From contig MGRJ01000031.1 of assembly GCA_001798135.1 (NCBI GenBank), positions 57,589-121,588 on the forward strand: 64,000 nucleotides of DNA. The letters run 5' to 3'. The notes below the pieces were generated by a model. That model worked only from the letters and a program-made list of their open reading frames with translations. It was not told the origin of the DNA and searched no databases. The DNA comes from Deltaproteobacteria bacterium RIFCSPHIGHO2_02_FULL_40_28. GTDB lineage: Bacteria; UBA10199; 2-12-FULL-40-28. The position numbers were made by a program, and so were the translations under genes. Positions 28,251 to 60,609 of the stretch are shown in pieces. Positions within the stretch are counted from its first letter, which is position 1, and each line of letters opens with the position of its first letter.

Positions 28251-28279
28251 TTCTAGTTAAATTATTATCCATCTACTCC

Positions 28280-28379: not shown

Positions 28380-28576
28380 AAAATTATTGAAATTGAAAAT
28401 CATTTTCAAAATCATTTATGAAGTACGTTTTAGGGGATGGGGTAAAAATAGTCAAGGATAAATTAACCCCCGGGAAAAATAAAAAGGGCCGCCATTTCTG
28501 GCGACCCTTTACTCTACCACCCCAATGGTAGAGAGTTCGGCTTACTACCCTCCGAGCCGACTTAGTTTTGGAAAAC

Positions 28577-38400: not shown

Positions 38401-41400
38401 GAATTCTTCTGGCCACCTCGGGATAAACAGACACTTCGTGCTTATCTACAAAAACATAAATATTTTGATCATAGAGACCCCTTTCAAACTCACCTTTTAG
38501 AGCTCCCAAGAGAGCACGCACAGAAAGTTCATTCATAGATACAAATTTTGTTACCGCAGGATCAACTCCTGGTAAGACAAGAGCTCCACTTTGAATATCT
38601 TCAAAAATGCGTTTTTCAATCAAGCCCGCCAAGGTTCCACCAGGAATTGCATGTAATGCAAAAGATAAAAAAGCAGGAAAACTTAAAACACGACGTAAAC
38701 CTGTTTTAGGATCAGAAAGCCTGGGGCTTGCCAATTCTTTTTTGGTGGTCATCTTGGCGCGACCCAGAGAACCCTTGGTTTCCCAGGTAGCCCCGCCGTA
38801 CACTCCACCCAACATTCCATCCGATTCAGAACCACGCCAATCAAACCAAAAAGTTTCTGAAGCTCCAAAATGTTTGCCCCTGGCTCCTTTTAACCAACCT
38901 TGTTCATTGAATAAATCAAGCAAACGGGGATGGCTTCTGCCCATGGGAATAATGGTTGCTATTTCTTCTTCTTTTTCAGAGGCAAAATTAGGAATTTTTT
39001 TCATTTCTAATTCGCCATAGGAATTCATGCTAGGAACAGAAAGTTCGGGCTGGTAATGCGCCCTAGCAGGCAAGCCAAAGGCTACAGAGTCAAAGAAGTT
39101 TACCCCCGGGAGTAGATTTTGTTTAATCAAAGCATCAACAGTTAAACCTTTAATGTTATCCCATTGAAGCTCGGTGTCAAATTCTGTATTAACAGCGGCA
39201 AGCCAGCCCCTAGGGTCTGTAAATCCCAGTTCTTCTAACTTGGTTGTACCTTTCACCAGCACAGGGCGATTTAAAATACGAGAAGCTTTTCTAGTTAACC
39301 ATCCACGAATTTCAGCAACGGTAGGCTCAAAAGCTTTTCCAACAGCTTCAACCACTTCTTTGGGAAGAGGAGTTGGAGTACCGGTTGCTGCCGGGTGGCC
39401 CACATCAAAGGGTACGGCATTTACATTAAGCAATTGTAAGTTAACTCCATGAGTCTCCGCCAAGGCCTTCAAAACAGCAGGATTAAAGGCAGAAGCTTTT
39501 TCAACAAGTTCTTCGGGTTTAGCGGGATCAACGGGATTTGGATCACGATGCACACCCACTACTTCTTTAACCGCTCCTGATTTAATCAGCGCGATTAAGG
39601 TGCGCATACCCATGCCATCAGACATGCCGTAAAACACCATGGGACGACGATGCCAGTTTTTTTGACGAGCCAGGTGGCCCATTTCGTTTACTTCTCTTTG
39701 TCCAATGGAGTCATAAATTTCTTTTACACGGGCTTGGGCCTCGGCATATTTAATGGCATTGTGCTGAGAGCGAATAATTTCTGCATTGGCGCGTTTGTTA
39801 GTGGCGCTAGCTTGATCTGCTGTAACTTCCAAGCGTTTTACCTTCTTGTTTTCGAAATCAACCGTATACACTCTGGGGTTTACAAAATTATTCTGGGCTA
39901 AATCGGTATCCACTTCCAGCTCTACACCCTCATTTAAGGGGAATTGGTAAACCCAACTTTCGATATTGTTCCAATCCAGTTTTCTGCCTTCCAAAACAAG
40001 TGCACGAGCAATGGCATGGGAACGCAAGGTTACTTCATATTGATCACGATAGAGAGAAACGGGGGTTTCTTGATAAGTAGCCCGATTAAAAAACATTTTA
40101 CGCAAGCCCTGACGTTCGGCTCTTTTTTGAACTCTTTCTTTCGCTACTCCCTCAATGAGTTTAGCCACATAATCCACTGCAGATTCTTCGGTCTCAAAAC
40201 CCAGTTTTCCCATCACTTCAATGATGGCTGTATTTTTAGCATTAAAACCAGCAGCCTCACGAAGCACCACCCATGTTACATCGTCATCGTAGAGATCCCT
40301 TAAATTCTCGGCATGCTTATGGTGGTAAACAGTCACATTTTCTCCACCCTGTGCATGAATATTATCCAAACCAGGATCACCCGGAATACCCAAGAAACGC
40401 ATCACAAGTGGAGATAAAGCTGAATCGGAACCGGAAGAACCACCCAAGAGATGTCCCATATGGGCCTTGGTTTTAACAATGTGGGCAAACTGGGTGGGAT
40501 CTAAAATGGAAGAAAGGAAAAGACGTATGGATTCTTCCTCGTATAAATCTCCCATGGGCGTAGAAGTCTTGTGCGCCATTACAACCAGGCGTACATTTTC
40601 TTTAAGCTTACGGGTATTATCCACAAGAAAATCCACCAAATTTTTTCCCGTACGACCTTCTCCAACAGCTTTATTCCATTCTTCTTCAGTCAGTTTGGGG
40701 CCAAAACGTTCGACTAACTTATTGTAGAGAGCTTTTTGTTCGGTAAGTTTTAAACCCCACGTACTGATGGCTGTATCGGCATTAAATTCTGCTTTTGCAC
40801 GCCCTGCAGCACGCTTCCCCCTTTGAACTGCAACCATTAATTCTTGTACAATACCCGTCATTTCCTCTGGGGTATGCAACACTTCAGTTAATTTTTCTTT
40901 GGCTTGATCCCAGGCATCAAAAAGAGCCGAGCGTTGACCAATACCGTAACCTTCTCTGGCTCCCTTGTAGGCTTGTTTATCTCCATCGGTGCGGCTTTCT
41001 GCCCCTGCAATCATGGAGTAAACAGGATCTCCTGTTTTGATGGCATTAGAAAGTGGGGTAATCCCCTGACCACCACCACCCGCACCCAACACAAAACCAA
41101 AGCGTTCCATATCATCGGGACGGGAAGCCATTTTAATGGCAATATCGCGACCACGACGAACAGAATCTCTTATTGTGGCTCCAATGGCATCAAAACCAAA
41201 AATGGCGTTGAAGGTAATGGCGTAATCAACTCCACCGGCAATCCAAATTTTTGCAAAAACTTCATCCCAGTTAACATCCATTCCACTTTCTTCTCTGCGT
41301 GTTGCAGCCCAATACTCACTAAACAAATGTTTCACAGCCATCACAATGTTCATGTTTCCTGTAGAACAAGCAGCTACAACGGCTAGCGCCATCCCTTCAG

Positions 41401-44400
41401 CACCTAATTGTTCGGTAGCTACCTGACCTGTTGTTGAATCGGGAAGAAGAGCTGCCATTAAGTAGTTGGCCACGCTATCTTCTATTTGCATGGGTTTTAA
41501 GGTCATTTCATTGAAAGGCTCTAAGTCACCCAAGCCTGTACCAATGCCGACAAAAACATTTTTAGGACCAAAAACTTCATCCAACTCTTTAGGAGAGCGC
41601 CCTGCAGCCGACATCAAAATTTGGGATGTAAACATCTTGGCCATAAAGGAAGCTTTGGCCCCAGTACGAAGCTCGCTAGCGGGCACACCCATGCCTTCCC
41701 AGTCAAAACTGGTTTGACCCGGAAGATCGCCCGCAATGGTTTTAGGCAATTGAATTGTAAATTTCATGAAGTAGGTTTGGCCACCCTTGGCTAAAGCATA
41801 CAGAGAGCCATCAGGACGCCTATGAATAGCCAAACCAGCATTTTCTAGTTTTGTACGAGTAGCTGCAGGTAAATTAATTCCCTTAGCAGTATTTTCAATT
41901 TCGATTTCCTTGTCATTATCTCCAAAAGCAACTTGGCGAAGCACTTCAAATTCTTTGAAGCGACCAACTTCCTGAATACCACTATTGGCCAAAAGATGCG
42001 CTTCAACAGCATTTTGCCATGTTTTAAATTTTTCCAAAACAGCATCATCTAAACCAATGGAAGCGGCTAGTTTTTTATAATCTCCCCACTGGGAAACATC
42101 CACACCCATGGCCTTGGCCAAATTGTAAAAATCATAATTACCAAGCCAGCTATAACCCTCGTGCCCTTTAAATAAACCAGCCGCCAACATATTACGATAG
42201 TTGGCTAGGGCATCTGTTCCCAAGGGACCAACCATGCCATACCCACGCACCACAGGAGTTTCATCTTCAAAAAGGATATCGGTTTTAGGCTTGTAAGCAT
42301 AGCGACTGCTTGTTTCTCCCTTAATGGCAATGTTGATGTTATTGAGATCAACAATGGTTCCATCTAAGGGAATAAGGCTGGGATCTACTGCTGCTTTCTT
42401 TTCTTCTGCTTTTCTAGCTTTAGCTTCGGTATGTTTTATATCTTCTGTTTCTTTAACGCGCGCTTCTATCTCACCAAATTTTCCTGTTCTTAAGGCAGAC
42501 GTAAAACCATAGGTATCATCATATTCCCAAAGACCTTGAACCCGCTTGCGGGTATCTCCCTCTGGGGGTCTCAATTTACGTTTCCCAAATTTAGCAGCCA
42601 GCGCCCCCGATAAACCAACTGTTGACAGCTCATCACCTGTAAGGGTTTTAATTTTAATTCCTTCTGCTAGTGATTCAGTTTCTAGAGGTTGCGAATAATA
42701 ATCTTTGCCCGACATTAAAGTTTCTGATCTGCCATCTGATTTTCCCCAACCCGTTGTTCTAGCTACTTCCACTAAAATGGGCTTTTCTTCTTCGTCTCTA
42801 ATCCCATTGGCATAGGCCTCTGCTGCGGTTTGACCTGGAGGCAGAGCATTTTTAGTTAAGTGATAACTTTTGGAACCTGGTAGGGCCGCAGGATTTAATT
42901 CTCCCTCAAGCTCACCCAAGTTTGCTGCATTATTGGGAGTGTAGAGATTAACAAAAACAACTTTCTCCCCTGTTTTGTATTTTTGATGGAGTTTAGCCAG
43001 ACTAATGGCCATCCAACGCGTAGAAAGAGCCATCACCAAAAGAGAATCGAGTGGAGTACCACGATCGGCTAGAGAGCCATAGTCTTCACGTCCAGCTCCA
43101 TTGATGTAGAGAGTAGGGAGATGAGGCATTTGAGGTTCTACTTCTAATTCACCCTTTCTGTATTTTTCTTTATCTTCCTTGTATTGTTTTAAGTCTGCAA
43201 CATACTTCATTTCGATGTAATAAAGCAGGGCATCTTCATCAAAGCGGTTTCCGGGTTGCATATTGGGCACCACATCCATACTGGCTCCATCCGCTGCCTC
43301 GCTGTAAATATCGTAGTAAAGATCGCTGGCTACTCTGCCTTTGCGCTCGGCACTTCGGCCAGCATAATCTGTCATCATCACGTTACCACCCAATTGCATC
43401 CACTTGGAGGCATAGCCGGCTGTGATGGTTGAAGCTTGATGAATTAAGGCCACATGCCCACGCAAATCGTAACCATCCTCAAGTAAAAACTGGAGATCTT
43501 TCCCTGTTTTTTTATCGGCCATGGTGGGATCGGCTAATCTTTTCGCAGCTTCGATAGTGCCATCAGTATCTGGAACAAATTGTGATTTTTTAGCACCTCC
43601 ATAGGTGGGAACATGATTACCCGAAACGATATCGATCACCTTCCCGGTATAAATAATTCCCTCATCCAAACGATGTGCAGCTAATGTGTAGAGATGTTCC
43701 AAGGTATCAATACGTCCTTGGCGACGGGCCTTTTCTGCTGTATCCGCAGTTGCATCCCGTTTTTTGGTTTCGGCATTGATGAAACCACGCAACCAACCCA
43801 AGCGAATACTATCGATTCCATTTGCAATTTGACGCATTTCTCTTTCTTCTTGGTCCAAAAGACTTGCACGTAATGCGTCAGAAGCATCTTCGGGCATACG
43901 GGTTTCAAAAGCAGCGCTTCGCACATAACCCACAAAACGCATGAGGCGGGCTATGCCTCCATTTTGGGTTACATGATTAAAACCATACACACCCATGCCA
44001 GCACGCACGGAAGTTAAAACACCTGTCACATCTTCGGCCGTCATATCCCCGCGTAAAATTTTACGAGGATCAATGGTTTCTGTTCCCCCCTCGGTACCTC
44101 GGTAGTAAATACTATCGGCATAATGGGGTTGCATGAGGCTATCCATAAAGAAGTCGGAGGTGGAAACACGAACAGCCCCTAAACGACGTTCTGCTTCGGC
44201 TAAACGAGAAGCTTGTTCTGAATCATAAGTTGTGGGTGCGCCTTTAGCATCAAGACCCACACGGGTATCTGTGGCTTCTACTCCTCTAGCTGAAGGGGTT
44301 GCTAAAACAGCAACAGCTGCACCTCGAGCCCCTGTTGCACCTGGCGAAGCTGGTGGTGGAGAATCTCCAGCAGCCGCAGGGGCGCTGCTCGCTGCGCCCA

Positions 44401-47400
44401 CAGAAGCCAATGCTGTTTGAATGGCTTGTTGAATAAGCTTGTCTTCGTTAGAGAGAGTTGTAGTTGTTGCAACCGCTGCTGCTCCAAGCTTCACTCCTTT
44501 TTTATCTAAAAGTTTTGCAAAATCGTTAACGCTTTTTACTTTTTCCAGGTCTCCATCCGAAATGGTAATAGAATACTTGGCTTGATAGGCACTTCTAACT
44601 TCATTGATTTTATTTGTATCAAAACCAAGATCATCCGCAAAACGAGTACTGGCTTCAATAGTTTCTGATACGCTCACTAAGCTTAATTGCTTCATGGTGA
44701 GGCCAATATCATCTACTAAAGACCCTCCCCCTGCACCCCCTCCCTGAGGGAGGGGGGAAGTTTGTGCACTTCCGGTTTGAGCAGTAATTGCTGCTAATCT
44801 AGCCTCTAAACCCGACCTGGCCGAAGCTCCTAAACCTTGAAGTTGTGTTGCTAGTTGTGTTGCTAAAGCATCTAAATGAGTCCCGGCATCAATGGCTGCT
44901 CGATTAGCGGCTACAAAGGTAGAAAGGGTGGAATCAACAGATGAGACCCCTCCCCCTGCACCCTCTCCCTGAGGGAGGGGGGAAGTATTGGTCATAACAG
45001 AATTGGTAAGGGCTTGGGTAATGGCTTTTTGTTCTACCTCTTCAGCAGGAGGAAGGGTAGCAGTAGCAGCAGAAGCTACAGCAACAGTTGCAGCAAGTTT
45101 GACTCCCTTTTTTTCTAAAAGAGCAGCAAACTGATTAACTGTGGATATTTTTTCAATCTCAGAATCGGCAATGGCAATGCCATGTCTACTTTGATAGGCA
45201 TTTCTTAACTCGTTTATTTTGTTGGTATCATAACCCAAATCATCTTTAAAACGCGTACCCCCTTCTACAGCTTCTGACGCACCAATCTGACCTAATTGTT
45301 TCATGGTTACAATAACATCATCTACTAAAGACCCTCCCCCTGCACCCCCTCCCTGAGGGAGGGGGGAAGTTTGTGCATTTCCAGCTTTACCAAGCAATTC
45401 ACTTTGACGCGCTTTTAACGCATCTGCTGCACCCGCACCTAATGCAACTAATTGTCCAGATAATTGAGTAGCCAACGCATCTAAATTTTGACGCGCTTCA
45501 ATAGCAGGTTTATTGGCCCCCACAAAGGCATCAACAATGGCTTTTACTTCAGCAGGAGTTACTTGCTTGAGAGCAGAGGTACTCGAAGGTGCTACTGTAG
45601 CAATAGCTTGAGGCTGGGCTGCCACTTCATCTGCTGCTCCTCTTCGAAGATCTTCTAATGTTTCTACCTTGATTTCACCAACCGTAATATCGGGGCGGTT
45701 GACTTCAACAACGGCTGTTTCGGCACTGGCAGTTAATGCCCCAATTTCCTTGGTATTAAAAGCCTTTAAAGAGTTGGCATAAATAATTTCAATGCGTTCA
45801 TCAGGTTTAATAATTCCTTTTGCTTTCAAATATTTTACTTCTTCTTCAATAAAGGGTTTTAAGGTGCCCGCTGATTGATGATGAGAAGGCCCAATTTCAA
45901 TAAAGCGTCTTACCCCTTCTTCTAACATTTTTCGAACATTAGCCCGCCAACGCACACTACGAGCCAATTGGCCGGCCATAATTTCACCCAAAAGTTGTTT
46001 TCTTCTCTCGTTAGTTGGAGGAGAAAAATCATCCTCGGCAATCCCTTTTTCTCTTCCTATTTCACGTAAAGATTTTCCTTCAACATCCAAGTAAACATCC
46101 ACAGCTTGATCTAATTTAGCAGGATCAAAAGGAATACCATGCTGACGCATGTAAACCAAGAAATCCGCCGAAGCCATTTCCATCAAGGAGGTATGAAAAG
46201 CATTGGCAATGGGACGAATATTGAGTGTGTATCCAAATTGATCAAACAATCCCCACACACTTTCGGCTAAACGATAATACTGGGGATTTGTTGTGGGATT
46301 TTTATCAAACAAAGCCTTGTGTCCACCAATCATCCACTGTTTAGGAGAGTTATCATTGGAAAATTCAACAACAAAGGGTGGCTCAATCTCCATCTCTACA
46401 CATTGCCCCCTCACATACTCTTGCATTGCTGTCATTTGCGCTTCACTTAAAGGCTCAACCTCATCTCCCTTGGGAAACACAGCAACAAGAGCTTGCGGTC
46501 TTTCTGTATCAATGTATCGCACCTGGGAAGAACCACGCTCGTAAACAGCTTTCATGGCATCATCAGGACTTAACATTCCAGAAGCAACTAGGGTAATCCA
46601 CATGCCCAAACTATGACCTGCATAAGCGGCATCACGAGGAATCAAACCCTTTGCCTGTAGCTCTTCAAACAAAATCAAAGAGTAGGCCATGATCATGGGT
46701 TGAACTTTGGAGGTATCATCTTCAGTTTTATCAGTCTTCCCCGCTTTGCTGTTCATGGATTTAACCAGATCAACAATGGGCTCTTTTCCATCAGGAGATA
46801 ATCCAATGGAATTCACTGCAGCTTTCAACGCCTCTCTTTTGTCTGCATCAATGTAGATTCCTAAAGAATCAATGGCATCTAAAAGGGGTTGATGTCTTTG
46901 GGCTGCATCGGCCTCTAAAAGGGCTTTATACAAAACAGGCATAACCCTGGCCTGACCAGCAATTTTAGCTTCTGCCCTGGTTGGCGCTGTATACTTGTAA
47001 TGTTTTAATTCCCGTACAAGGGCGGCTTGAATCTTTCTGGCCGAAGCTGAAATTTTGGGCATGTACTCTTGAAACTGAGCCAGCCTGGCTCTTCTTGCCG
47101 GATCAGAAATGAGATGATTGCCCATATCCAGGTATTGAGAGCCCTGGCCTGTAAAAACAACGGCTGTTTTAACTCCCTTGCCTACCAAATCGTAACTCAT
47201 CACAGCTGTGCCTTGTGCATTTTTTACTACCACATGGTAGGAATCTACACCTTCGGCGGTTGCTGTACGGGTTACCTCTGGAAAAAGTTTATCCCCCATC
47301 CCCACAAAGCCCGTGTATTTAAGGTTGGCTACTCCTAGGGCATCACGCATGAGTCCCGCTCTTTGCATTTCGTTTAAAACAAATTCGTTCACATGAGCAA

Positions 47401-50400
47401 AGGTAGCCATGCCCTGCATGATGCGCCCTTGCGCAATTCCACCCGCAACAGCTGCTAAATCAGAAACATGGATGGGATTTAAATCGACAACATATTTTTC
47501 AGCTAAATCTACTGGAATGGTTAACGAACCTTTAAACACCAAACGACTTTGAGGAAGATAGGCCAAACGTTCTGAAAGATACTTGGAAGCCACCACTCCC
47601 AATTTTTTGTACTCGGCCTTTAATAAATCTCCCAAACGTTTTTGTTCAGCTTCTACTTTAGCTTTGGCATCAGCATCACCTTCTTCTGCTTTTTTAATTA
47701 ATTTTGCTAAAGTCTCAATAGCTGTAGCATGCTTACCCATAAAGGCAGCATAGGCAGCTTGTGCCTTGGCTCCATCAAAATAAGGAATGCGTTTGGGGCT
47801 TGGCCTTTCTTTTAAGTCTTCATTCCATTCATCAATGTCAGTTTTTAAATCTTTTTGATACCCTTCAATAGCTAGGCGTTCAATAGTTTGAGCCGGGCTT
47901 GCCACATTGTTATAAACTGTTCTTCCTTCTAAAAGATTAATGGCGGCATCGGGAGCTTTAAATATAACGCGCTCTGGCCCTGTACGCATGCGGGATACCA
48001 AGGAAGAATCGATCACACGTACTAATTCTTCAGTTGCACCTTTTATACGATACACTTCAGCACGCACCACTATACGCCGACCTGCCAAGCGGCCATCATT
48101 AAAATCTTCGGCTTTTAAAAGACGAGAACGAGTTACAAGAGTATCCCCCACACGAATAGGGGCTACAAAATTAAAAGTTTTCCCCTCGTCAATTACACGA
48201 GTTGGATCCATATCGAATTCTTCCATAAACATGGCGCCATCCAAGGATTGCCACATGTCGTGCGAAAGATAATGCGGATGCACTTCAAAATTTCTGGCAT
48301 GGGCATCAAGATACTTGGCTTCTGTAGACCCAATGGAGGCTGCATAATCTGTTGCCTGACGGGGCGTTAAAGGAGATGACCGCCTCTCAAAAACTGCCCC
48401 TCCTGCACCTGCTTGTTCTTTAGAAACGCTAGCCCACTCGGTTGGAATATCCCAAATTTGTCTGTAAAAAACTCTAGCTTCCTTTCGAAATTGATCCATG
48501 TTTTCTTGTTCCCAAGTAGCACCCACTTTTTTGTAATTGCGGTTTAATTCATAGTGCGTGGTGAGATCGGATGGACTAGGATAATAATACTGAACCATGT
48601 GAATTCCACCGTCTCCCCTATTAGTAACAGCAAAAGAAAGCCGACCATTTTCGTAAAAATTAATGGTTTTTACTTTTCCATTTTCAAATTGAAATTCAAT
48701 TTCATGACGCGTTTTATCTTTTTCGGGAACATTCCGAATAAAACCAAGATAGGGATTATTTTCTGGTTTTCCCTCTACCGTTATTTTTTTAGCTTTTAAA
48801 AAATCGGTGAGAACACTGTCGGGATCAATACCTAAAATACCGTTTTTATATTTTTCAAATACACTGGGATTAGTTCCATCAGATTTTTCATCCATGCGCT
48901 TGGTTGGAACAACACGAACATTTAAATAATCATCACTTCCATCTACTGTTTTAACTTGTACTTGTACTCCATCAATGGCTTTTAGTTTTCCTACAGCAGA
49001 ATCATCTGTATCTTTTTTTGTTTTAGGTATTGTTTGCAAATGAGCTTTAAGGGGATCGTTGCTTGTAGTACGAAGCCAACTTTTCATTCCATCGGCATCT
49101 TCATCAACCACTCCTAAAATATCCATGCGCTTATTAGAAAACACAGCAGGAAGGGCAGTTTTAGCATGATGGGAAGAAGGTCCTACAGTTACAGCTGAAG
49201 TAGCACCGTGGCTTGCCGCCCAACGGTATTGATGGGGCATATTGACTGGCCAATGCCATTGCTGACGACGCAAGTTTAAAGCAATATCACTCTCTGGGGT
49301 AATGGGAGTGATATTATAATTATGAATTACAGTTGAAAGATAGGGAGCTCGCAAAGGAAGGGGTGTTCCTGGTTCATAATGATTGGCTGTGGCTAGAAGC
49401 CTTTCGTGCTCTGCGGGAGCATCTGCATAAACCCTGGGATTATGGGGAGGCATGGTAAGGCCCGTTTGAGTGAGAGGATCACGCACATTGTTATTCCACG
49501 AAAAAGAAGTAACAATGGGTTTTAAGCGGGTAACTGTTGCATCATCATAACCTGTCCAATCAAAATCACGCTTAAAAATAATCATCTTGGCCAATTCTGC
49601 CAAGGCTTTTCCATGACCAATCATCAAAATAAAATGAGAACGAGTCCCATCTTTGGTTTCATCTGTATTTACATTGTTCACAGCTACATAATCATCTGTT
49701 CCTGCATAACGAGTATTAATGGCTTCAACGAGTTGCCCCAACTCACTCTCACCTGGATTAAACCAATCATAGGGGATACCCGAAACCGTCATGGTAACCA
49801 AATTATATCTTTGAAAATAAGTGTCGATGTCTTGAGGTTTGGGTGGAATTTTTTTACCTTCACCGTCCATTTTAACTAAGGGATCAAATTCTGTGGCTCC
49901 CTCTGCATTGGCATTAAAGGGTCCTTCAAAAACAGCCCCTTCCGTAACAGACCATTCGATAAAATTTTGATACGCCTGCACCGTATGGTATCCACGGAAA
50001 TCCCCATCGTTTCTAGGAATCAAGGGGCGCTCATACCCTTCTACATCAAAGGAACCACCTGCAAAGTAAGCTGCAGGCAAGCCTCCCGATTGACCTAAGA
50101 GGGCCACAAATTGACCAAAATCATACCCATGAAGTTCCATCACCCTTACCCGAAGGGCCTGAACTAAGTTAATCATGGGAAAGGCATGGCTTACACGACT
50201 GATTTCAATGTAGTTGGCATAGATTTTTTGATCGGCATCGGCCATACGACGCAATTTTTCGATATCAATGCCATGGCGTATGAAAATATCGCGCAATTCA
50301 CCATAAAGTTTTTGAGCTTCAGGATAATTTTCGATTAAAAAGTTGAGTTCATTGATGTAACCTGCCCCCTGACCTGCAAACACAGCAAAGGGCTTATCGC

Positions 50401-51139
50401 GACCATCTCGAATATCTAAGGCTCTTTGAGCCATGGGCTCTAAGCCCTGTTTTCTAATTTCATCACGAAGCCTGGTATAAACTTCCCAATCGGTTGCATT
50501 GATGGAGGCTTTTTTAAGTGCATCATCTTTTGTAGGATCAGGATCAGCCTTACCATTCATTCCAAATTCATAATCGGCACGTGCTAAAAGTTCCCAAAGG
50601 AAAAGTGTTCTTTGTCCTTCAGTTATTTCTAAAAGCTCAGCATCATGATCTAAAACTACTTCTGCTAATCCTAAAGTTTTTCCTAAATTTTTAAAACGTC
50701 CCGAAAAATAAGTGGCATAATCTCCTTCTCCTTCGGCCTGAGCTAAAATGCTATGAGCAACAGCTTCAAATTGATCACTTACATAAACCACATCCCCACC
50801 TACAGAAATTCCTTTGAAATGAAATTCGCTGGGATAAATGGGATTACCATCTTGATCAAGCCCAATAGAGCCTGTAAAGCGCTGTAAACCACGTTCGGAA
50901 ACTGGGCCCACAAACATTTCAAGCCGGCTACGCAAGGCCTCCATTTGAGATCCCTCAACAAGACCCGATCGTTCTAACTTGCTCAACATGTTACGACGCA
51001 GTAGAGAAGTTTTAGCTGCTGAAACCTCAACTAAAACTTGCCCTACTTCAGAATCTTTTAAAGGTGTTGTTCGATCACCTGATATGATCTGTGAGTAAAT
51101 AGAGGCACCGATTGCATTCGCCATACTTTCTCCGTTCAT
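35408..51139 (-). CDS. Giant (5243 aa) type I fatty-acid-synthase-like megasynthase. N to C: AT-like domain, unknown region, malonyl/acyl transferase, two ACP-like domains, reductase-like region, fungal-type ketoacyl synthase, unknown/DH-like region, NMO-type TIM-barrel enoyl-reductase-like domain
   Basis: Single uninterrupted 15.7-kb ORF. Motifs: VFAGQGAGY (AT-like, about aa 250); VVFTGQGSQ + AYAGHSLG (MPT, about aa 1400-1510); two ACP-like units FKDDLGYDTNKINEL / FADDLGFDTNKINEV (about aa 1940-2200); KS Cys VVAACSTG plus SRPDD..GFVLGAGGG and KAHMGHLLGGSSG (about aa 3050-3500); PVIASGAYTTHEDVKGAFHWGASGVALDDAIL (ER-like, about aa 4700-4940). Likely start at the Met at 51124, preceded by GGAGAA. 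Confidence 0.8.
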   Translation of the reverse strand: MNGESMANAIGASIYSQIISGDRTTPLKDSEVGQVLVEVSAAKTSLLRRNMLSKLERSGLVEGSQMEALRSRLEMFVGPVSERGLQRFTGSIGLDQDGNPIYPSEFHFKGISVGGDVVYVSDQFEAVAHSILAQAEGEGDYATYFSGRFKNLGKTLGLAEVVLDHDAELLEITEGQRTLFLWELLARADYEFGMNGKADPDPTKDDALKKASINATDWEVYTRLRDEIRKQGLEPMAQRALDIRDGRDKPFAVFAGQGAGYINELNFLIENYPEAQKLYGELRDIFIRHGIDIEKLRRMADADQKIYANYIEISRVSHAFPMINLVQALRVRVMELHGYDFGQFVALLGQSGGLPAAYFAGGSFDVEGYERPLIPRNDGDFRGYHTVQAYQNFIEWSVTEGAVFEGPFNANAEGATEFDPLVKMDGEGKKIPPKPQDIDTYFQRYNLVTMTVSGIPYDWFNPGESELGQLVEAINTRYAGTDDYVAVNNVNTDETKDGTRSHFILMIGHGKALAELAKMIIFKRDFDWTGYDDATVTRLKPIVTSFSWNNNVRDPLTQTGLTMPPHNPRVYADAPAEHERLLATANHYEPGTPLPLRAPYLSTVIHNYNITPITPESDIALNLRRQQWHWPVNMPHQYRWAASHGATSAVTVGPSSHHAKTALPAVFSNKRMDILGVVDEDADGMKSWLRTTSNDPLKAHLQTIPKTKKDTDDSAVGKLKAIDGVQVQVKTVDGSDDYLNVRVVPTKRMDEKSDGTNPSVFEKYKNGILGIDPDSVLTDFLKAKKITVEGKPENNPYLGFIRNVPEKDKTRHEIEFQFENGKVKTINFYENGRLSFAVTNRGDGGIHMVQYYYPSPSDLTTHYELNRNYKKVGATWEQENMDQFRKEARVFYRQIWDIPTEWASVSKEQAGAGGAVFERRSSPLTPRQATDYAASIGSTEAKYLDAHARNFEVHPHYLSHDMWQSLDGAMFMEEFDMDPTRVIDEGKTFNFVAPIRVGDTLVTRSRLLKAEDFNDGRLAGRRIVVRAEVYRIKGATEELVRVIDSSLVSRMRTGPERVIFKAPDAAINLLEGRTVYNNVASPAQTIERLAIEGYQKDLKTDIDEWNEDLKERPSPKRIPYFDGAKAQAAYAAFMGKHATAIETLAKLIKKAEEGDADAKAKVEAEQKRLGDLLKAEYKKLGVVASKYLSERLAYLPQSRLVFKGSLTIPVDLAEKYVVDLNPIHVSDLAAVAGGIAQGRIMQGMATFAHVNEFVLNEMQRAGLMRDALGVANLKYTGFVGMGDKLFPEVTRTATAEGVDSYHVVVKNAQGTAVMSYDLVGKGVKTAVVFTGQGSQYLDMGNHLISDPARRARLAQFQEYMPKISASARKIQAALVRELKHYKYTAPTRAEAKIAGQARVMPVLYKALLEADAAQRHQPLLDAIDSLGIYIDADKREALKAAVNSIGLSPDGKEPIVDLVKSMNSKAGKTDKTEDDTSKVQPMIMAYSLILFEELQAKGLIPRDAAYAGHSLGMWITLVASGMLSPDDAMKAVYERGSSQVRYIDTERPQALVAVFPKGDEVEPLSEAQMTAMQEYVRGQCVEMEIEPPFVVEFSNDNSPKQWMIGGHKALFDKNPTTNPQYYRLAESVWGLFDQFGYTLNIRPIANAFHTSLMEMASADFLVYMRQHGIPFDPAKLDQAVDVYLDVEGKSLREIGREKGIAEDDFSPPTNERRKQLLGEIMAGQLARSVRWRANVRKMLEEGVRRFIEIGPSHHQSAGTLKPFIEEEVKYLKAKGIIKPDERIEIIYANSLKAFNTKEIGALTASAETAVVEVNRPDITVGEIKVETLEDLRRGAADEVAAQPQAIATVAPSSTSALKQVTPAEVKAIVDAFVGANKPAIEARQNLDALATQLSGQLVALGAGAADALKARQSELLGKAGNAQTSPLPQGGGAGGGSLVDDVIVTMKQLGQIGASEAVEGGTRFKDDLGYDTNKINELRNAYQSRHGIAIADSEIEKISTVNQFAALLEKKGVKLAATVAVASAATATLPPAEEVEQKAITQALTNSVMTNTSPLPQGEGAGGGVSSVDSTLSTFVAANRAAIDAGTHLDALATQLATQLQGLGASARSGLEARLAAITAQTGSAQTSPLPQGGGAGGGSLVDDIGLTMKQLSLVSVSETIEASTRFADDLGFDTNKINEVRSAYQAKYSITISDGDLEKVKSVNDFAKLLDKKGVKLGAAAVATTTTLSNEDKLIQQAIQTALASVGAASSAPAAAGDSPPPASPGATGARGAAVAVLATPSARGVEATDTRVGLDAKGAPTTYDSEQASRLAEAERRLGAVRVSTSDFFMDSLMQPHYADSIYYRGTEGGTETIDPRKILRGDMTAEDVTGVLTSVRAGMGVYGFNHVTQNGGIARLMRFVGYVRSAAFETRMPEDASDALRASLLDQEEREMRQIANGIDSIRLGWLRGFINAETKKRDATADTAEKARRQGRIDTLEHLYTLAAHRLDEGIIYTGKVIDIVSGNHVPTYGGAKKSQFVPDTDGTIEAAKRLADPTMADKKTGKDLQFLLEDGYDLRGHVALIHQASTITAGYASKWMQLGGNVMMTDYAGRSAERKGRVASDLYYDIYSEAADGASMDVVPNMQPGNRFDEDALLYYIEMKYVADLKQYKEDKEKYRKGELEVEPQMPHLPTLYINGAGREDYGSLADRGTPLDSLLVMALSTRWMAISLAKLHQKYKTGEKVVFVNLYTPNNAANLGELEGELNPAALPGSKSYHLTKNALPPGQTAAEAYANGIRDEEEKPILVEVARTTGWGKSDGRSETLMSGKDYYSQPLETESLAEGIKIKTLTGDELSTVGLSGALAAKFGKRKLRPPEGDTRKRVQGLWEYDDTYGFTSALRTGKFGEIEARVKETEDIKHTEAKARKAEEKKAAVDPSLIPLDGTIVDLNNINIAIKGETSSRYAYKPKTDILFEDETPVVRGYGMVGPLGTDALANYRNMLAAGLFKGHEGYSWLGNYDFYNLAKAMGVDVSQWGDYKKLAASIGLDDAVLEKFKTWQNAVEAHLLANSGIQEVGRFKEFEVLRQVAFGDNDKEIEIENTAKGINLPAATRTKLENAGLAIHRRPDGSLYALAKGGQTYFMKFTIQLPKTIAGDLPGQTSFDWEGMGVPASELRTGAKASFMAKMFTSQILMSAAGRSPKELDEVFGPKNVFVGIGTGLGDLEPFNEMTLKPMQIEDSVANYLMAALLPDSTTGQVATEQLGAEGMALAVVAACSTGNMNIVMAVKHLFSEYWAATRREESGMDVNWDEVFAKIWIAGGVDYAITFNAIFGFDAIGATIRDSVRRGRDIAIKMASRPDDMERFGFVLGAGGGGQGITPLSNAIKTGDPVYSMIAGAESRTDGDKQAYKGAREGYGIGQRSALFDAWDQAKEKLTEVLHTPEEMTGIVQELMVAVQRGKRAAGRAKAEFNADTAISTWGLKLTEQKALYNKLVERFGPKLTEEEWNKAVGEGRTGKNLVDFLVDNTRKLKENVRLVVMAHKTSTPMGDLYEEESIRLFLSSILDPTQFAHIVKTKAHMGHLLGGSSGSDSALSPLVMRFLGIPGDPGLDNIHAQGGENVTVYHHKHAENLRDLYDDDVTWVVLREAAGFNAKNTAIIEVMGKLGFETEESAVDYVAKLIEGVAKERVQKRAERQGLRKMFFNRATYQETPVSLYRDQYEVTLRSHAIARALVLEGRKLDWNNIESWVYQFPLNEGVELEVDTDLAQNNFVNPRVYTVDFENKKVKRLEVTADQASATNKRANAEIIRSQHNAIKYAEAQARVKEIYDSIGQREVNEMGHLARQKNWHRRPMVFYGMSDGMGMRTLIALIKSGAVKEVVGVHRDPNPVDPAKPEELVEKASAFNPAVLKALAETHGVNLQLLNVNAVPFDVGHPAATGTPTPLPKEVVEAVGKAFEPTVAEIRGWLTRKASRILNRPVLVKGTTKLEELGFTDPRGWLAAVNTEFDTELQWDNIKGLTVDALIKQNLLPGVNFFDSVAFGLPARAHYQPELSVPSMNSYGELEMKKIPNFASEKEEEIATIIPMGRSHPRLLDLFNEQGWLKGARGKHFGASETFWFDWRGSESDGMLGGVYGGATWETKGSLGRAKMTTKKELASPRLSDPKTGLRRVLSFPAFLSFALHAIPGGTLAGLIEKRIFEDIQSGALVLPGVDPAVTKFVSMNELSVRALLGALKGEFERGLYDQNIYVFVDKHEVSVYPEVARRIQEVQARLEARLGAEKAAWVANGKDIREFEGKMSREDTALLLTDILPGDYLKYTFEHIGDIKEKRTLERGIKHDAEGIAQLPMPEAFKGVSYPVLQRGFSPEVNTPSLAIAVIDAGGIGTLDAGNLKATETAAEKVLRERAARKAATEGGNGVNGVPDTLEARIDAVYAAVGNTAPLVVSLDVSASNFEAQLKVVAEKQVRGVMFRGGLPKTEQVIALNKVGIAVFQTVDTAAEVIKLTEMKVVEHEGKPNQKTTKAKFDAVVVERSISSGNINQAGENKFGDLSDLRDPRWDVMPTVPLRPINLQFKTTDFPSFRLYSNKSEVDFKLPETYAGYTGITHGGMLDSIFESVLEAMVKGGERVDINKLHRNVGYIANAPSNANVRIYVEKKPDGRIEMRMMELVDKPAEGGKPATREEKTLSNATFQDASKVKSKDKASTINPAELASNAQFGCLPNCVAAGHEHGTGLHFRFNYDDGKKALWGRVTPIEGQSRYHSMMLAADELTGWTGMMAFKIWGFTADNLYTPLRAPEANEAITLVAEVPEWDGLTSDMRMKVTFFGEDGQAIGVLTARYVPQMKAAQNVLARAIENLRAHPEDPEIRATFAFVKKALGHNFNKILQAVEQNRDMNADPELIVRKAREALYDAKIPVIASGAYTTHEDVKGAFHWGASGVALDDAILYSKESQYGGKTILSDPLTLSHPREGGDPSLGSSVAVRVIEDAEGRKLRLMDTPGALKLDTQLKFYREKIKDKTLTEAIAKPLMRTAVTNAFANAQSANDATRRQGGIFLASQNVGTVRVGEELESTFERLIHGREAPPPPEPGRDSGPDGGDGPSPGHREEPEERRGDPGSPSAPGEVAARATGELVSLADVAGLRSGLVQGVSHVGAQFIAPSEQGVINHAPTGEMDRATLLARLEEHGYGRDEMEGLGLENIHWQQLAMALDAEDPASAVDQVLEDVGVIEHAGPSARMEAMATRAGAMRRGSASPVVAAALKAAG
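36310..37100 (-). other. Enoyl-reductase-like FMN TIM-barrel (nitronate monooxygenase fold) domain (approximate bounds)
   Basis: ...IPVIASGAYTTHEDVKGAFHWGASGVALDDAIL resembles the NMO/FAS-ER G-rich FMN-binding segment. Confidence 0.5.
40640..41990 (-). other. Ketoacyl-synthase domain, fungal/CMN FAS-I type (approximate bounds)
   Basis: Active-site Cys codon at about 41362 in AACSTG. Downstream His/Lys-His motifs. Confidence 0.6.
44500..45372 (-). other. Tandem ACP-like domains with Thr at the canonical phosphopantetheine Ser position, separated by and flanked with three in-frame family B repeat cores
   Basis: Codons gat-acc (about 45221-45235) and gat-aca (about 44601-44609) encode D-T in the DLGxD(S/T) motif. 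The flanking helices align with E. coli ACP ([25 protein letters not shown] against SRHGIAIADSEIEKISTVNQFAALL). Confidence 0.6.
46000..46970 (-). other. Malonyl/acyl transferase (MPT-like) domain of the megasynthase (approximate bounds)
   Basis: GQGSQ and GHSLG (Ser codon at about 46610) read from the translation. Confidence 0.6.
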
Positions 51140-51427
51140 GGACCCAATTTAAAGCAATACCCCCTCGCTGCTTCACAGCAAGGCCTTCCAGACAAAACTC
51201 GAAAGATGAATAGTGATTCCTCTGCCCCAGGTGGACGGGAATGATGATTACTGACTTAAGACCCCAACACTCTAAAAACTGAATGGACGTTCAGCGTCCT
51301 TAGCGTAGCTGAAAATTCATTTCAAGAAAAAAATCAAATCTTTATCTGCCTCTTACAACCAAAGGTTGCTTCCTTTTTTTCCGTCATCCCTGCCTCTTTT
51401 GTCATCCCTGCGAAGGCAGGGATCCAT

Positions 51428-54400
51428 CTATATCTTCGCCTTAACCCAAGTCATTTCACCACGGCGTCGGGCTAATTGATACACATTAGCACCCCTTGCC
51501 CCATTTGTAGGGGCAGGTTCTAAACCTGCCCGGGCGGGTTCAAGCTCTTCTGCAATCACTGCTAAAGCTTCCATATTTTCGGCTTGGACAGCTGCTCTTA
51601 AAGCAAGTTCCATCTCTGCTGGGATAATATCCATTTCTGCGAATTCAGCTCCTAAATCAGCATCTACAGCAGCTATTACCTCTGCCAAGGGGGTTTGATC
51701 CATCTCAGTAGGAATGGCTAAATCGTGGAAACCAAGGGTGTCTAAAAGCTCGCGAGCGGTTTGAACAACCCACTCAGTATAAATCCCTCGGGTTGCCGCT
51801 CGGGATGCCCTTTCCTCAGGAGTTTCCAAGAATACTAATCTGGGAGCTAAACTAAGAGCGTTCGCTCCACTTACAGCGGATAAACCACCTAAAACTTCTC
51901 CACCTATTGCCAATCCTAATGGAGAATCCGTAGGGGCAGGTTCTAAACCTGCCCCCGAATCATGGACGGGTTGGGAACCCGCCCCTACACGATCTGTGGG
52001 TTCAACCCCTCGGCTCCCCCCTTGCTCTCTGGTAGGGACTTGCCCTTCTGCTGGCAGGCCACCACCAGAACCAGGAGAAGGTCTCTCTGGAGGTGTTACT
52101 CCATTGGCAAGCCCCGCCTTGACATAAATAGGTCCACGCTGGGATTTAGCTACTTCACCAAATCCACTACTTCCATTACGATACAGAACCGTATTACCTT
52201 CAAAAATTTCTGGCGTCTTTTCATAAGCAACTACAATGTGGGTTACTTGGGGAAATGCTGCTCTCACCCTCTCAAAAATATTCTGTTGAGTAAAAAATGG
52301 AATTCCGATGGGTTTGTTAATTCCCTTACTTTGACTCGGGGTTTTTACTTGTGAAAAACGAATAATTTTTCCGTCATCATGAACGCTAATACGAACATGT
52401 CTGGTTGAAGAAAAAACATAGGCACCGTTAACCTGTTCTTTTTCAACCCAACCTAACGCTTGTGCTACTGTTACAGGGGTTACAAGAGTAACTGGGGCGA
52501 CGCGTGGGTCGCCCCCTACATCAGGAGCAAGGGTAGTTACGGTAGGGGCAAACCCCTGTGTTTGCCCTTCTGTTGGTGGATCTCCTGGAGGAGGATCACC
52601 TGCTGGAGCACTCGAAGCAGGGCCGCCAGAAGGTGGGGTTCTCACCAAGGCCAATAAACCTTCTGCTAAACTTTCAGCTCCCATAACTGCTGATAAACGC
52701 CCACGCATTGGTTTTGGCAACATTTCTAAAAGCCCACGAGCACGTTCCATCAAAGTTACTGCTTGTCCAAACTTGGCCTCGTTAATTTTTTCTGCTAAGA
52801 AAGCTGTATTTTTTTGAATCCAATTTTCTACAAAGGCATTATCGGCCCATAATTCATCGTTGGTTCGACCTGGATTGCCACGCGTCGCCATGTCTTCATT
52901 AAACCAACCACGAATTTTTTCTCTCGCTTCTACAGGAGTGAGATTAAATTCTCCCGTATCTCCATCACGCCCAGAGGCCTGCAGAAGAGCTTTTCTTAAT
53001 TGATCAAAGGCCACACTTCTGGCCAACCATTGATGTCCTTCAGATCTAAAATCTTTCCAATCTACAATGCGGTTGATCACTCCTTTTGTAAGCATGCGTT
53101 CGGGCACATCATGGGCATCAGCAAATTGAGTGGCAATAGATCGATAAACAGGAAGAAGTATTTTTTCCCTGGCGGCAATTTGTTCTTTAAATCCTGTAGT
53201 TTGTCCACTATCAGCAGGCACCCTGGCAAGTTGAGATTCTAGCTCAATGATGGCATCATCACATTCTCTCATCTTGGCTTTTAAAAACTCATCATCTTTT
53301 CCCCAAATTTTAAGTCTGGCAGTAGCTCCTGCTTCCAAAACATTTCCACGAGAAGTAGATTCTGCCCAAAAGGTTGCTTGATCTTGATGATTAATGGTTG
53401 GATCAACCACCACCCAGGCTCCACCCCGCAGCTCTCCAAAGGGAGGCAGCATAATCATTACAGGAGCATCGTACTGACGCAATTCATCCACAATAAAAGA
53501 ACCATACTTCAAAATATGGTCGAACATGTTATCGACACCGCCCGAAAATCCTCTCCAGTTGGGAAGCACCACTAAAGGTAAACCTTCGCGCCTGGCATCC
53601 CCCATAAATTCAGCTGTTTTCCAAGCCGAATCAGACCACCACACCTTGCCTGCTTGATCCACACGCCTTTCAGAAGAAGCTCTCATGGCTGCATCAGCAG
53701 GAATAACTTTTTGTGTCGACCGTAATTCGGGTGTCAGCACAGCAACAGGAATACCTCCCCATCGAGCCCGACCCGTCACCACACTTTTAGCCCATTCCCC
53801 CATGTCTTCCTTAAAAGATCCCTCATCTAAAAAGCCCGGGGCATACTCTCCTTCAAAAGCAATGGTACCCTCTTTGGCAACAGGAGTTGGACCACCACGA
53901 ATTAAAAAGCGGGGATCATAAACCATTGCGGGGTCAAGAGGTTTCCAAAGGTTGGTGCGGTTTACTGGATCTGTGTTCTTTACAATGAGAAGTTCGCCGC
54001 CTTTTACTTTTGGAATAAAAGAAATCCAATCCAAAAAGGTTTTCATTCCAGCAATATCATCTTCTACCACAGTGCGAGTATTTCCATTGGCCGCATGAAT
54101 ATTCACTCCACCAAATTCCTGGTTATCGGTGTAATACTCATCTCCCATCAACTCATTCATCATGTCTTTACCAGTAAGCATCATGGCCGTGCCCCGTTTT
54201 TGAATGACACGACGATTTAAACGGCTAATATACGCCCCAATACCCACGTTTAGCCCCATTACGTAAGTGAAGGTAAGGCCTTCATCATAGGCCTTAGAGG
54301 CTTCTCCCGCAATGGTTCCAGAGCCTCTTAGATTTTCAACTCCAATACCATCGGGGCCATCTTTAATACCGGTAATTTTCCAACGAGTTTCACCTTCTAC

Positions 54401-60546: not shown

Positions 60547-60609
60547 TAAAGCGGGGCACAGGTTCAATGTCATCCTGAACCCTTCACCTGTCATCCTGAC
60601 AATTAAAAT

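What the first reader, a model, noticed from the sequence alone, without database searches (positions are those of the whole stretch)
44500..45372. Both ACP-like domains carry Thr instead of the phosphopantetheinylated Ser (DLGYDT / DLGFDT)
The helix-II motif that is DSL in essentially all carrier proteins reads D-T-N here in both tandem copies (codons gat-acc and gat-aca, checked on the nucleotide sequence). The surrounding helices align well with canonical ACP. Either phosphopantetheine is attached to Thr, which is highly unusual, or these are non-canonical carrier or scaffold domains. A dedicated Sfp-type PPTase is encoded directly downstream.
Basis: seen in the sequence. Interest (0 to 1): 0.65.

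Follow-up and report, generated by a model that had tools for sequence, protein, structure and literature searches.

The report
Carrier domains with threonine attachment site
Both acyl-carrier domains of a very rare 5,243-residue bacterial fatty-acid-synthase-like enzyme have threonine where carrier proteins normally have the serine that holds the phosphopantetheine arm, and the threonine looks old and conserved rather than an error, which hints at an enzyme that can load the arm onto threonine.

Summary
The region lies on the minus strand inside one 5,243-aa ORF (35408..51139). This ORF is a distant relative of fungal and mycobacterial type I fatty acid synthase, flanked upstream by a 2,791-aa single-chain acetyl-CoA carboxylase and downstream by an Sfp-type PPTase.

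- **The two sites.** ACP1 reads DLGYD-T1972 (acc, 45224-45226). ACP2 reads DLGFD-T2175 (aca, 44615-44617). Every alignment puts both Thr in the phosphopantetheinyl-Ser column.
- **Homologues.** An exhaustive search of 1.84 billion proteins found only three relatives. All seven of their ACP copies have Ser there, so Thr is derived.
- **Not an error.** Two independent assemblies are identical over this stretch. The two codons differ. ACC and ACA encode invariant Thr elsewhere in the window.
- **Old and constrained.** The two ACP copies are 60% identical in protein, with dS about 1.3-1.65 and dN/dS about 0.2. The catalytic motifs checked in the synthase and the PPTase motifs are intact.

My best reading (about 0.5) is that Thr is the real attachment site, loaded by the adjacent PPTase. 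E. coli ACP S36T cannot be modified, so this would be unusual. Rival readings are apo or scaffold domains served by a separate carrier, or a decaying locus. Only mass spectrometry can decide.

The parts
35408..51139 (-). 5,243-aa type-I-FAS-like megasynthase. Mapped domains: FAS1-type and MaoC dehydratase (aa 914-1307), malonyl/acyl transferase (aa 1328-1615, GHSLG at 1508), ACP1, ACP2, KR-like region (about aa 2440-3060), KS (aa 3139-3581, Cys3258), and an NMO/FabK-type enoyl reductase (aa 4332-4516). Several stretches are unassigned.
   Evidence: ORF and translation. Pfam and NCBIfam hits. KS and KR profiles hit fungal and mycobacterial FAS I in the PDB. Catalytic motifs are conserved with the homologues.
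45092..45331 (-). ACP1 domain (aa 1937-2016)
   Evidence: AlphaFold model and Foldseek hits.
45224..45226 (-). ACP1 Thr1972 codon (acc) in the position of the phosphopantetheinyl Ser
44483..44722 (-). ACP2 domain (aa 2140-2219)
44615..44617 (-). ACP2 Thr2175 codon (aca) in the position of the phosphopantetheinyl Ser
34409..35275 (-). Sfp-type 4'-phosphopantetheinyl transferase (288 aa) directly downstream. It carries an in-frame insertion of about 55 aa (nt 34885-35041) made of REP-like elements.
   Evidence: Pfam ACPS 26.5 bits. Motif alignment with Sfp and with the PPTase downstream of homologue P0004. REP copies mapped.
51428..59803 (-). 2,791-aa single-chain biotin carboxylase / BCCP / carboxyltransferase (acetyl-CoA carboxylase-like) directly upstream, the presumed malonyl-CoA supplier.
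   Evidence: NCBIfam hits. EAMKA biotinyl-Lys motif at aa 842-845.
44723..44761 (.). In-frame 39-nt palindromic REP-like element encoding SPLPQGGGAGGG just N-terminal of ACP2. Sister copies lie at 44948-44986 and 45332-45370.
   Evidence: The copies flanking the two ACPs are 100% identical in nucleotides, whereas the ACP cores are 66% identical.

Best explanation
The two domains are working acyl carrier domains of an active FAS-I-like megasynthase, in which the attachment residue has changed from Ser to Thr. The co-transcribed Sfp-type PPTase (34409..35275) transfers 4'-phosphopantetheine from CoA onto the Thr hydroxyl at the N-terminus of helix II. The chemistry would be the usual Mg2+/Glu-assisted attack on the beta-phosphate of CoA. 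The holo tandem ACPs then shuttle acetyl, malonyl and acyl intermediates between the transferase, KS, KR, DH and ER domains, with malonyl-CoA supplied by the upstream giant carboxylase.

Shown: Thr occupies the Ser position in both copies, the state is derived, it is old and under constraint, and the PPTase and synthase motifs are intact. Inferred: that Thr is actually modified, and that this PPTase does it.
For: 1. **Position.** Thr occupies exactly the Ser column in every alignment, and the model places it at the start of helix II.
2. **Age and constraint.** The two ACP copies are anciently diverged (60% aa, 66-68% nt, dS about 1.3-1.65) and under purifying selection (dN/dS about 0.19-0.22). 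Both keep Thr, with different synonymous codons.
3. **Conserved helix-II face.** The face D-(S/T)-N-x-I-x-E-x-R-x-A-x-Q is invariant between the window and its Ser-bearing relative P0002.
4. **No ACP-specific acceleration.** The excess of window-specific changes in the ACP regions (ratio 1.5-1.9) is the same as in the DH, MPT and KR regions (1.4-2.0).
5. **Intact synthase.** The 15.7-kb ORF is open, and the MPT GHSLG, the KS Cys/His/His, the ER GGIG motif (shared with P0003) and the GQSGG motif are conserved.
6. **No other carrier nearby.** These are the only carrier-like domains in the 64-kb window.
7. **Retained PPTase.** A PPTase with all Sfp catalytic motifs stays open through three in-frame REP insertions. 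The synthase-PPTase arrangement recurs at homologue P0004.
8. **Standard decoding.** ACC and ACA encode invariant Thr in Pur[10 protein letters not shown] and in KS CSTG.
Against: - No natural phosphopantetheinyl-Thr turned up in five full-text searches.
- E. coli ACP(S36T) is reported as unable to receive 4'-phosphopantetheine and as non-functional (PMC3340395).
- The PPTase carries a REP-derived insertion of about 55 aa that could impair it. Its Pfam score is barely above the cut-off, and its structure could not be modelled (pLDDT 30).
- In ACP-only alignments the window copies look somewhat more derived than P0002's copies (for example 19 versus 6 unique changes). The full-length quartet analysis suggests P0003 is not a true outgroup.
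- Nothing here measures the modification.
Confidence: 0.5

Rival explanations
1. The Thr domains remain apo and act as structural or docking domains. The megasynthase works with a separate carrier, such as the cell's own AcpP encoded elsewhere, or with CoA-bound substrates. The adjacent PPTase would then serve other carrier proteins in the genome.
For: Ser-to-Thr abolishes modification in the best-studied system (PMC3340395). The domains are only moderately ACP-like by HMM. The rest of the genome, and therefore any FAS II or acpP genes, could not be inspected because the collection scans were exhausted.
Against: The partner-recognition face of helix II is conserved with the Ser-bearing homologue, and dN/dS is about 0.2 on both copies. 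All three relatives use in-cis Ser ACPs in the same position. The PPTase is kept in the operon position, as at P0004. In fungal and mycobacterial FAS I the ACP works from inside the assembly (established knowledge), which makes a free carrier awkward. That last point is untested for this family.
Confidence: 0.25
2. The locus is losing function. Loss of the attachment Ser and REP insertions into the PPTase and the synthase would be early steps of decay, and the intact ORFs simply reflect too little time.
For: Several REP-like elements sit inside the PPTase and FAS coding sequences. The family is extremely rare and patchy, with three relatives among 1.84 billion representatives, which fits dispensability.
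Against: Both Thr pre-date a divergence of dS of at least 1.3 between the ACP copies, yet 5,243 codons of synthase, 2,791 of carboxylase and 288 of PPTase remain open. All catalytic motifs checked are conserved. Every intragenic REP copy is in frame and free of stop codons. Two independent recent Ser-to-Thr changes, rather than any other substitution, would be unlikely under neutrality.
Confidence: 0.15
3. The Thr result from a sequencing, assembly or decoding artefact, and the real residue is Ser.
For: All homologues have Ser. The data come from metagenome-assembled genomes.
Against: The two sites use different codons (acc and aca). The 9,868 nt are identical in an NCBI and an ENA assembly, and the adjacent PPTase with the same gene neighbourhood recurs on 15 contigs. 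There is no homopolymer context. ACC and ACA encode invariant Thr in PurA and in KS.
Confidence: 0.02

Closest known systems
Canonical acyl carrier proteins (PF00550; E. coli AcpP Ser36 in DSL)
   Same: A helical domain of about 80 aa. The DLGxD motif precedes the attachment residue at the N-terminus of helix II. It aligns with solved ACPs at E about 1e-4.
   Different: Thr replaces the invariant Ser, and the next residue is Asn rather than Leu. Helix II is not acidic (TNKINELRNAYQ). In E. coli the S36T mutant is not modified and is non-functional (PMC3340395).
Fungal and Corynebacterium-Mycobacterium-Nocardia type I fatty acid synthase (for example PDB 6gjc, 4v8l, 7bc4, 6jsh)
   Same: The KS and KR regions hit these enzymes by profile search. 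It has a FAS1-type DH plus a MaoC hotdog, an FMN/NMO-type enoyl reductase, a FabD-like transferase, and an ACP placed between the transferase and the KR. A PPTase is associated with the synthase.
   Different: It is much larger (5,243 aa) and has tandem ACPs. The enoyl reductase is near the C-terminus rather than after the N-terminal transferase. There are extra unassigned domains. Sequence identity is too low for phmmer hits on most regions. The ACP attachment residue is Thr.
The three homologous megasynthases P0002 (MAG GCA_030647375.1), P0003 (JGI 3300045502) and P0004 (uncultured Pseudomonadota MAG)
   Same: They are collinear over the whole length at 32-46% identity. They have 1-3 tandem ACPs of the same subtype (GIDSN or GIDSG). 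P0004 has a PPTase directly downstream. P0003 has a large gene directly upstream, cut by the contig end, which was not identified.
   Different: All seven of their ACP copies have Ser (codons AGT/AGC or TCG/TCC). Only the window protein has Thr.
Tandem ACP arrays of PUFA synthases and some polyketide synthases
   Same: Repeated carrier domains are separated by low-complexity Ala/Gly/Pro linkers. The presumed purpose is higher throughput (established knowledge).
   Different: Those arrays have canonical LGIDS Ser sites. Here the copies are much more diverged from one another (60% identity) and carry Thr.
Sfp-type PPTases (PF01648; B. subtilis Sfp, HetI, AusB)
   Same: NCBIfam gives weak hits to AusB and HetI.
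   Different: It is very divergent, with no PDB hit by phmmer at E of 10 or below. It has a REP-derived insertion of about 55 aa in the N-terminal half. Its presumed acceptor residue is Thr.

Membership tests
Carrier protein superfamily (PP-binding, PF00550) | Four-helix bundle of about 80 aa recognisable by the family HMM | tested here: met
   PF00550 scores 26.9 bits against a cut-off of 20.8 on the didomain. NCBIfam ACP models reach E=4.7e-13 but fall below their trusted cut-offs. PDB ACP hits are at about 7e-5. The AlphaFold model (pLDDT 63) has an ACP-like helix pattern, and its top Foldseek hits are all ACPs.
Carrier protein superfamily (PP-binding, PF00550) | Conserved Ser at the N-terminus of helix II ((D/H)S(L/I) motif) as the phosphopantetheine attachment site | tested here: not met
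   Both copies have Thr (T1972 and T2175) in that column. Homologues have Ser in 7 of 7 copies.
Carrier protein superfamily (PP-binding, PF00550) | Covalent 4'-phosphopantetheine on the domain (holo form) | not testable with these tools
   This needs mass spectrometry or a labelled-CoA assay.
Microbial (fungal/CMN) type I fatty acid synthase | KS, KR, FAS1-type DH, MPT-type transferase, FMN-dependent ER and ACP on one or two giant polypeptides, with sequence relationship to known members | tested here: met
   Pfam FAS1_DH_region, MaoC, Acyl_transf_1, ketoacyl-synt and NMO hits. The KS profile hits mycobacterial FAS at 1.6e-18 and fungal FAS alpha over about 540 residues. The KR profile hits fungal FAS alpha at 4.7e-5.
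Microbial (fungal/CMN) type I fatty acid synthase | Canonical domain order AT-ER-DH-MPT-ACP-KR-KS(-PPT) | tested here: not met
   The NMO-type ER lies at aa 4332-4516, after the KS. The ACP is duplicated. There are additional unassigned domains of about 700 aa and a C-terminal hotdog-like region. The PPTase is a separate gene.
Microbial (fungal/CMN) type I fatty acid synthase | Barrel-shaped oligomer with the ACP enclosed in reaction chambers; fatty acyl-CoA product | not testable with these tools
   There is no structural or biochemical data, and the protein is too large and too poorly sampled for modelling here.
Sfp-type 4'-phosphopantetheinyl transferase (PF01648) | Family HMM match and the three signature motifs with the Mg2+/catalytic Asp/Glu and Lys | tested here: met
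   ACPS scores 26.5 bits against a cut-off of 25. VSLSHT, GIDVE and LKESLTK align with the Sfp motifs.
Sfp-type 4'-phosphopantetheinyl transferase (PF01648) | Pseudo-dimeric alpha/beta fold of about 230 aa | tested here: inconclusive
   The single-sequence AlphaFold model failed (pLDDT 30). phmmer found no PDB hit. The protein is 288 aa because of a REP-derived insert of about 55 aa.
Sfp-type 4'-phosphopantetheinyl transferase (PF01648) | Transfers phosphopantetheine from CoA to a carrier-protein Ser | not testable with these tools
   Activity and Ser/Thr preference need an enzyme assay.

The most novel reading that the evidence does not exclude
This operon encodes the first natural carrier protein and transferase pair in which 4'-phosphopantetheine is attached to threonine. 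The divergent Sfp-type PPTase would have co-evolved to accept the Thr at the helix-II N-terminus. The pair might then be orthogonal to the cell's Ser-specific AcpS and to AcpH-type phosphodiesterases.
Probability: 0.4. Interest if true: 0.8.

Novelty: new variant of a known kind. Interest (0 to 1): 0.6.

Why it matters
The Ser attachment site is treated as invariant in fatty acid, polyketide and non-ribosomal peptide carrier proteins. It is the fixed residue of the PROSITE phosphopantetheine pattern (from memory). The conservative S36T change is used in the laboratory as a dead, unmodifiable ACP.

A natural, long-maintained Thr in both carriers of an otherwise intact synthase, next to its own PPTase, yields a directly testable hypothesis: phosphopantetheinyl transfer to Thr exists in nature. 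If that is true, three things follow.
- The chemistry known for PPTases would widen.
- A Thr-specific PPTase and tag pair orthogonal to Sfp/AcpS labelling could be developed.
- Annotation pipelines that discard Ser-less carrier domains as inactive would need a warning.

If it is false, the case shows a megasynthase that keeps carrier-like domains for another purpose. The host enzyme family is itself almost unknown. Only four lineages were detected, and they are bacterial relatives of fungal-type FAS I with a different domain order.

Tried and rejected
- **Word-indexed protein searches** with a 2,333-aa piece, a KR-region alignment and an ACP alignment returned only a fungal FAS and two ordinary ACPs. 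The index evidently misses this family, so the family census rests on the exhaustive HMMER run.
- **Collection scans.** Genome-collection scans found nothing with the single KS sequence, and one locus from the same organism as P0004 with the alignment. Two metagenome scans found nothing: a KR alignment, and a degenerate DNA pattern for DDLG[IYF]D[ST]N[NK]I[GN]E. No second Thr-bearing lineage could therefore be found or excluded.
- **Literature.** Five searches for natural Thr-linked phosphopantetheine or Ser-to-Thr carriers found no precedent. A further search for described bacterial relatives of this synthase found none.
- **PPTase structure.** The prediction failed, and phmmer found no solved relative.
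- **Third carrier-like segment.** A window-specific insert (aa about 3940-4010, LEELGFTDPRGW) looked like ACP helix II by eye, but has no HMM or PDB support. I rejected it as a carrier.
- **Alternative attachment Ser.** I looked by eye. The only Ser shared by both copies lie in helix I and its loop, not at the start of a helix II. I rejected this.
- **Non-standard decoding** is rejected.
- **Relative-rate test.** It first suggested faster ACP evolution. The same asymmetry holds across all domains, and P0003 is not a true outgroup. I therefore do not treat it as ACP-specific relaxation.
Full report
**What is at the coordinates**

The finding lies on the minus strand inside a single 15.7-kb ORF, 35408..51139, of 5,243 aa. 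Pfam and NCBIfam place the following on it:
- a FAS1-type dehydratase region plus a MaoC hotdog (aa 914-1307);
- a FabD-like acyl/malonyl transferase (aa 1328-1615, GHSLG at 1508);
- two carrier-like domains;
- a ketosynthase (aa 3139-3581, Cys3258 in AACSTG);
- an FMN-dependent NMO/FabK-type enoyl reductase (aa 4332-4516).

Profiles of the KS and of the region after the ACPs hit mycobacterial and fungal type I FAS in the PDB. The KS gives 1.6e-18, with about 540 aligned residues to fungal FAS alpha. The KR gives 4.7e-5. The protein is therefore a distant relative of the microbial type I FAS, with a different domain order and extra unassigned parts.

Directly upstream is a 2,791-aa single-chain biotin carboxylase/BCCP/carboxyltransferase, with a biotin motif EAMKA. 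Directly downstream is a 288-aa ORF that matches the PPTase family (ACPS 26.5 bits against a cut-off of 25).

Exact-sequence look-ups identify the window as Rifle aquifer MAGs named 'Deltaproteobacteria bacterium RIFCSPLOWO2_12_FULL_40_28' and siblings.

**The observation**

ACP1 (aa 1937-2016) reads ...TRFKDDLGYD-T1972-NKINELRNAYQ. ACP2 (aa 2140-2219) reads ...TRFADDLGFD-T2175-NKINEVRSAYQ.

The Thr aligns with the Ser of DLGADS in four ways:
- phmmer alignments to solved ACPs;
- a small HMM of canonical ACPs run over all six-frame ORFs of the window;
- a MAFFT alignment with E. coli, B. subtilis and P. falciparum ACP;
- the family's own ACP alignment.

The HMM scan also shows that these are the only carrier-like domains in the 64 kb. 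An AlphaFold model of ACP1 is only moderately confident (pLDDT 63). It has the expected helices and puts the Thr as the first residue of helix II, and its top Foldseek hits are all ACPs.

**It is not an artefact**

- The 9,868 nt upstream of the PPTase, including both Thr codons, are identical in NCBI assembly GCA_001799145.1 and in an independent ENA assembly. The adjacent PPTase with the same gene neighbourhood recurs on 15 contigs.
- The two codons differ at the third position.
- There is no homopolymer context.
- ACC and ACA encode universally conserved Thr in PurA (GTTGRGIGP) and in the KS CSTG motif of the same gene, so decoding is standard.

**Homologues**

An exhaustive HMMER search of 1.84 billion cluster representatives, using aa 1901-3100, found only three relatives:
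- P0002, a 1,998-aa fragment from MAG GCA_030647375.1;
- P0003, 4,533 aa, from a JGI metagenome;
- P0004, 3,958 aa, from an uncultured Pseudomonadota MAG.

They are collinear with the window protein over its whole length at 32-46% identity. Their seven ACP copies read DDLGIDSNNIGEVRSA (two copies), VGIDSGEAGNA (three copies; DVGIDS in two) and DIGIDSNSFAEKA (one copy). All have Ser. Thr is thus a derived state of the window lineage.

Informative quartet sites favour P0004 as the outgroup, with the window protein branching before P0002 and P0003.

P0004 also has an Sfp-type PPTase immediately downstream (ACPS E=6e-13), so the synthase-PPTase arrangement recurs at one homologue. The contig carrying P0003 has no PPTase among the genes held in the locus.

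**Is the Thr maintained?**

The two ACP copies of the window are old paralogues. They share 60% of residues and 68% of bases, with dS about 1.3 and dN about 0.28, giving dN/dS about 0.22. If the first 13 codons are excluded, because they fall in a more similar 100-nt repeat, dS is about 1.65 and dN/dS about 0.19. Both copies nevertheless keep Thr, with a synonymous difference.

The positions D-x-N-x-I-x-E-x-R-x-A-x-Q along helix II, the face that partner enzymes normally read, are invariant between the window copies and the Ser-bearing P0002 copies.

A relative-rate test on the ACPs alone suggested more change on the window branch, for example 19 versus 6. The same asymmetry (ratio 1.4-2.0) is seen in the DH, MPT and KR regions when P0003 is the reference, and it disappears with P0004. 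So there is no ACP-specific relaxation.

The MPT GHSLG, KS Cys/His/His, GQSGG, ER GGIG and other motifs are conserved with the homologues.

**The PPTase**

The two synthase-linked PPTases are only 22% identical.

The window enzyme has an in-frame insertion of about 55 aa (MDPRLRGDD...REGGDPSS). This insertion is made of three copies of REP-like palindromic elements that are otherwise intergenic in the window. The ORF stays open through them. Its structure could not be modelled (pLDDT 30), and no solved relative is detectable by sequence.

**What is known**

In E. coli the S36T variant of ACP is described as unable to be modified by 4'-phosphopantetheine and as non-functional. It is used as a negative control (PMC3340395; also used in PMC13343975). 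Five full-text searches found no report of natural Thr-linked phosphopantetheine or of a natural Ser-to-Thr carrier. The library does not hold most subscription-journal papers, so absence is not proof.

**Interpretation**

The most economical reading is that these are working carriers whose attachment residue is Thr, loaded by the adjacent PPTase. The argument has four steps:
1. A 5,243-codon synthase with intact catalytic motifs, a 2,791-codon carboxylase and a PPTase have all stayed open for longer than the ACP1/ACP2 divergence.
2. The ACPs are under purifying selection.
3. Their recognition face is conserved.
4. No other acceptor is encoded nearby.

I put this reading at about 0.5, because the key step, transfer to Thr, is inferred and runs against the E. 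coli precedent.

The main rival (about 0.25) is that the domains stay apo and the enzyme uses a carrier encoded elsewhere. This cannot be tested without the rest of the genome. A decaying locus (about 0.15) fits the REP insertions and the rarity of the family, but fits poorly with the long open frames and the age of the Thr state. An artefact is essentially excluded (about 0.02).

**Comparison and novelty**

As a fold and by position in the synthase these are ACP domains. They fail the one residue-level feature that defines the family's attachment site, so I describe them as ACP-like carriers with a variant site rather than as canonical members.

The host protein works like a microbial type I FAS, but it does not have that family's domain order.

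I rate the finding as a new variant of a known kind, with interest 0.6. A carrier-protein specialist would be surprised, and the question can be tested directly with one co-expression and mass-spectrometry experiment. It remains a single-lineage, sequence-only case.

**Limits**

- The word-indexed protein search did not retrieve this family at all.
- The genome and metagenome scans found no further loci. I could not establish whether other Thr-bearing lineages exist, or whether the MAG has a type II FAS with its own ACP.
- dS values near saturation on 67-80 codons are rough.

Noticed in passing
window 44723-44761, 44948-44986, 45332-45370 (in FAS); 34885-34914, 34938-34972, 35012-35041 (in PPTase); 36277-36306 (in FAS). 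Intergenic copies at e.g. 381-494, 4260-4412, 4631-4670, 5605-5727, 12555-12646, 28277-28387, 51398-51430, 60605-60706: At least three families of short GC-rich palindromic (REP-like) elements are scattered through the window. Several copies sit inside coding sequences, always in frame and free of stop codons. They encode SPLPQGGGAGGG linkers in front of the ACPs and an insert of about 55 aa (MDPRLRGDD...REGGDPSS) in the PPTase. This resembles Rickettsia palindromic elements. The copies before ACP1 and ACP2 are 100% identical in nucleotides, while the flanking ACP cores are 66% identical, so the insertions (or their homogenisation) are recent.
   Followed up: partly
window 35408-51139 (-); relatives L001:4585-18186, L002:10001-21877, L003: The megasynthase family is extraordinarily rare. 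An exhaustive search of 1.84 billion protein representatives gave three relatives. It is a bacterial relative of fungal/CMN type I FAS with a different domain order (ER after KS, tandem ACPs, C-terminal hotdog-like region in the window protein and P0004). About 700 aa carrying a conserved FYGMSDGMG Rossmann-like motif remain unassigned. The one literature search made for it found no description of this family.
   Followed up: partly
L001 (P0003), L002/L004 (P0004) and L003 (P0002) ACP codons, against window 44615-44617 and 45224-45226: The attachment Ser is encoded by AGT/AGC in P0003 and P0004, but by TCG/TCC in P0002. The family has therefore switched Ser codon class at this site, which needs a Thr or Cys intermediate or a double substitution. 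The window's ACC/ACA is exactly the one-step Thr intermediate. This suggests that a Thr state can be tolerated in this family.
   Followed up: partly
window 51428-59803 (-): A 2,791-aa single-polypeptide acetyl-CoA-carboxylase-like protein (biotin carboxylase, BCCP with EAMKA, carboxyltransferase) lies upstream of the synthase. It is longer than eukaryotic ACCs, and its C-terminus is low-complexity.
   Followed up: no
window about 39110-39320 (-), FAS aa about 3940-4010: A window-specific insert of about 70 aa is absent from P0003 and P0004. It contains LEELGFTDPRGWLAAVNTEFDTEL, which resembles ACP helix II by eye, again without a Ser. Neither Pfam nor PDB searches support a carrier fold.
   Followed up: partly
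window 30455-34141 (-): A 1,228-aa ORF directly downstream of the PPTase has only weak P-loop NTPase (AAA / NB-ARC-like) matches. It is conserved in position in all assemblies of this population. Its function is unknown.
   Followed up: no
window 1595-2722 (-) and 26301-27443 (+); genes between about 24400 and 30400, seen in L005 at 14917-15427 and 19801-20867: There are two AAA_14/DUF4143 ATPase genes and several toxin-antitoxin pairs (BrnT/CopG-like, Phd/ParE) near the FAS operon. A DUF4143 ATPase gene also lies near the P0003 locus.
   Followed up: no
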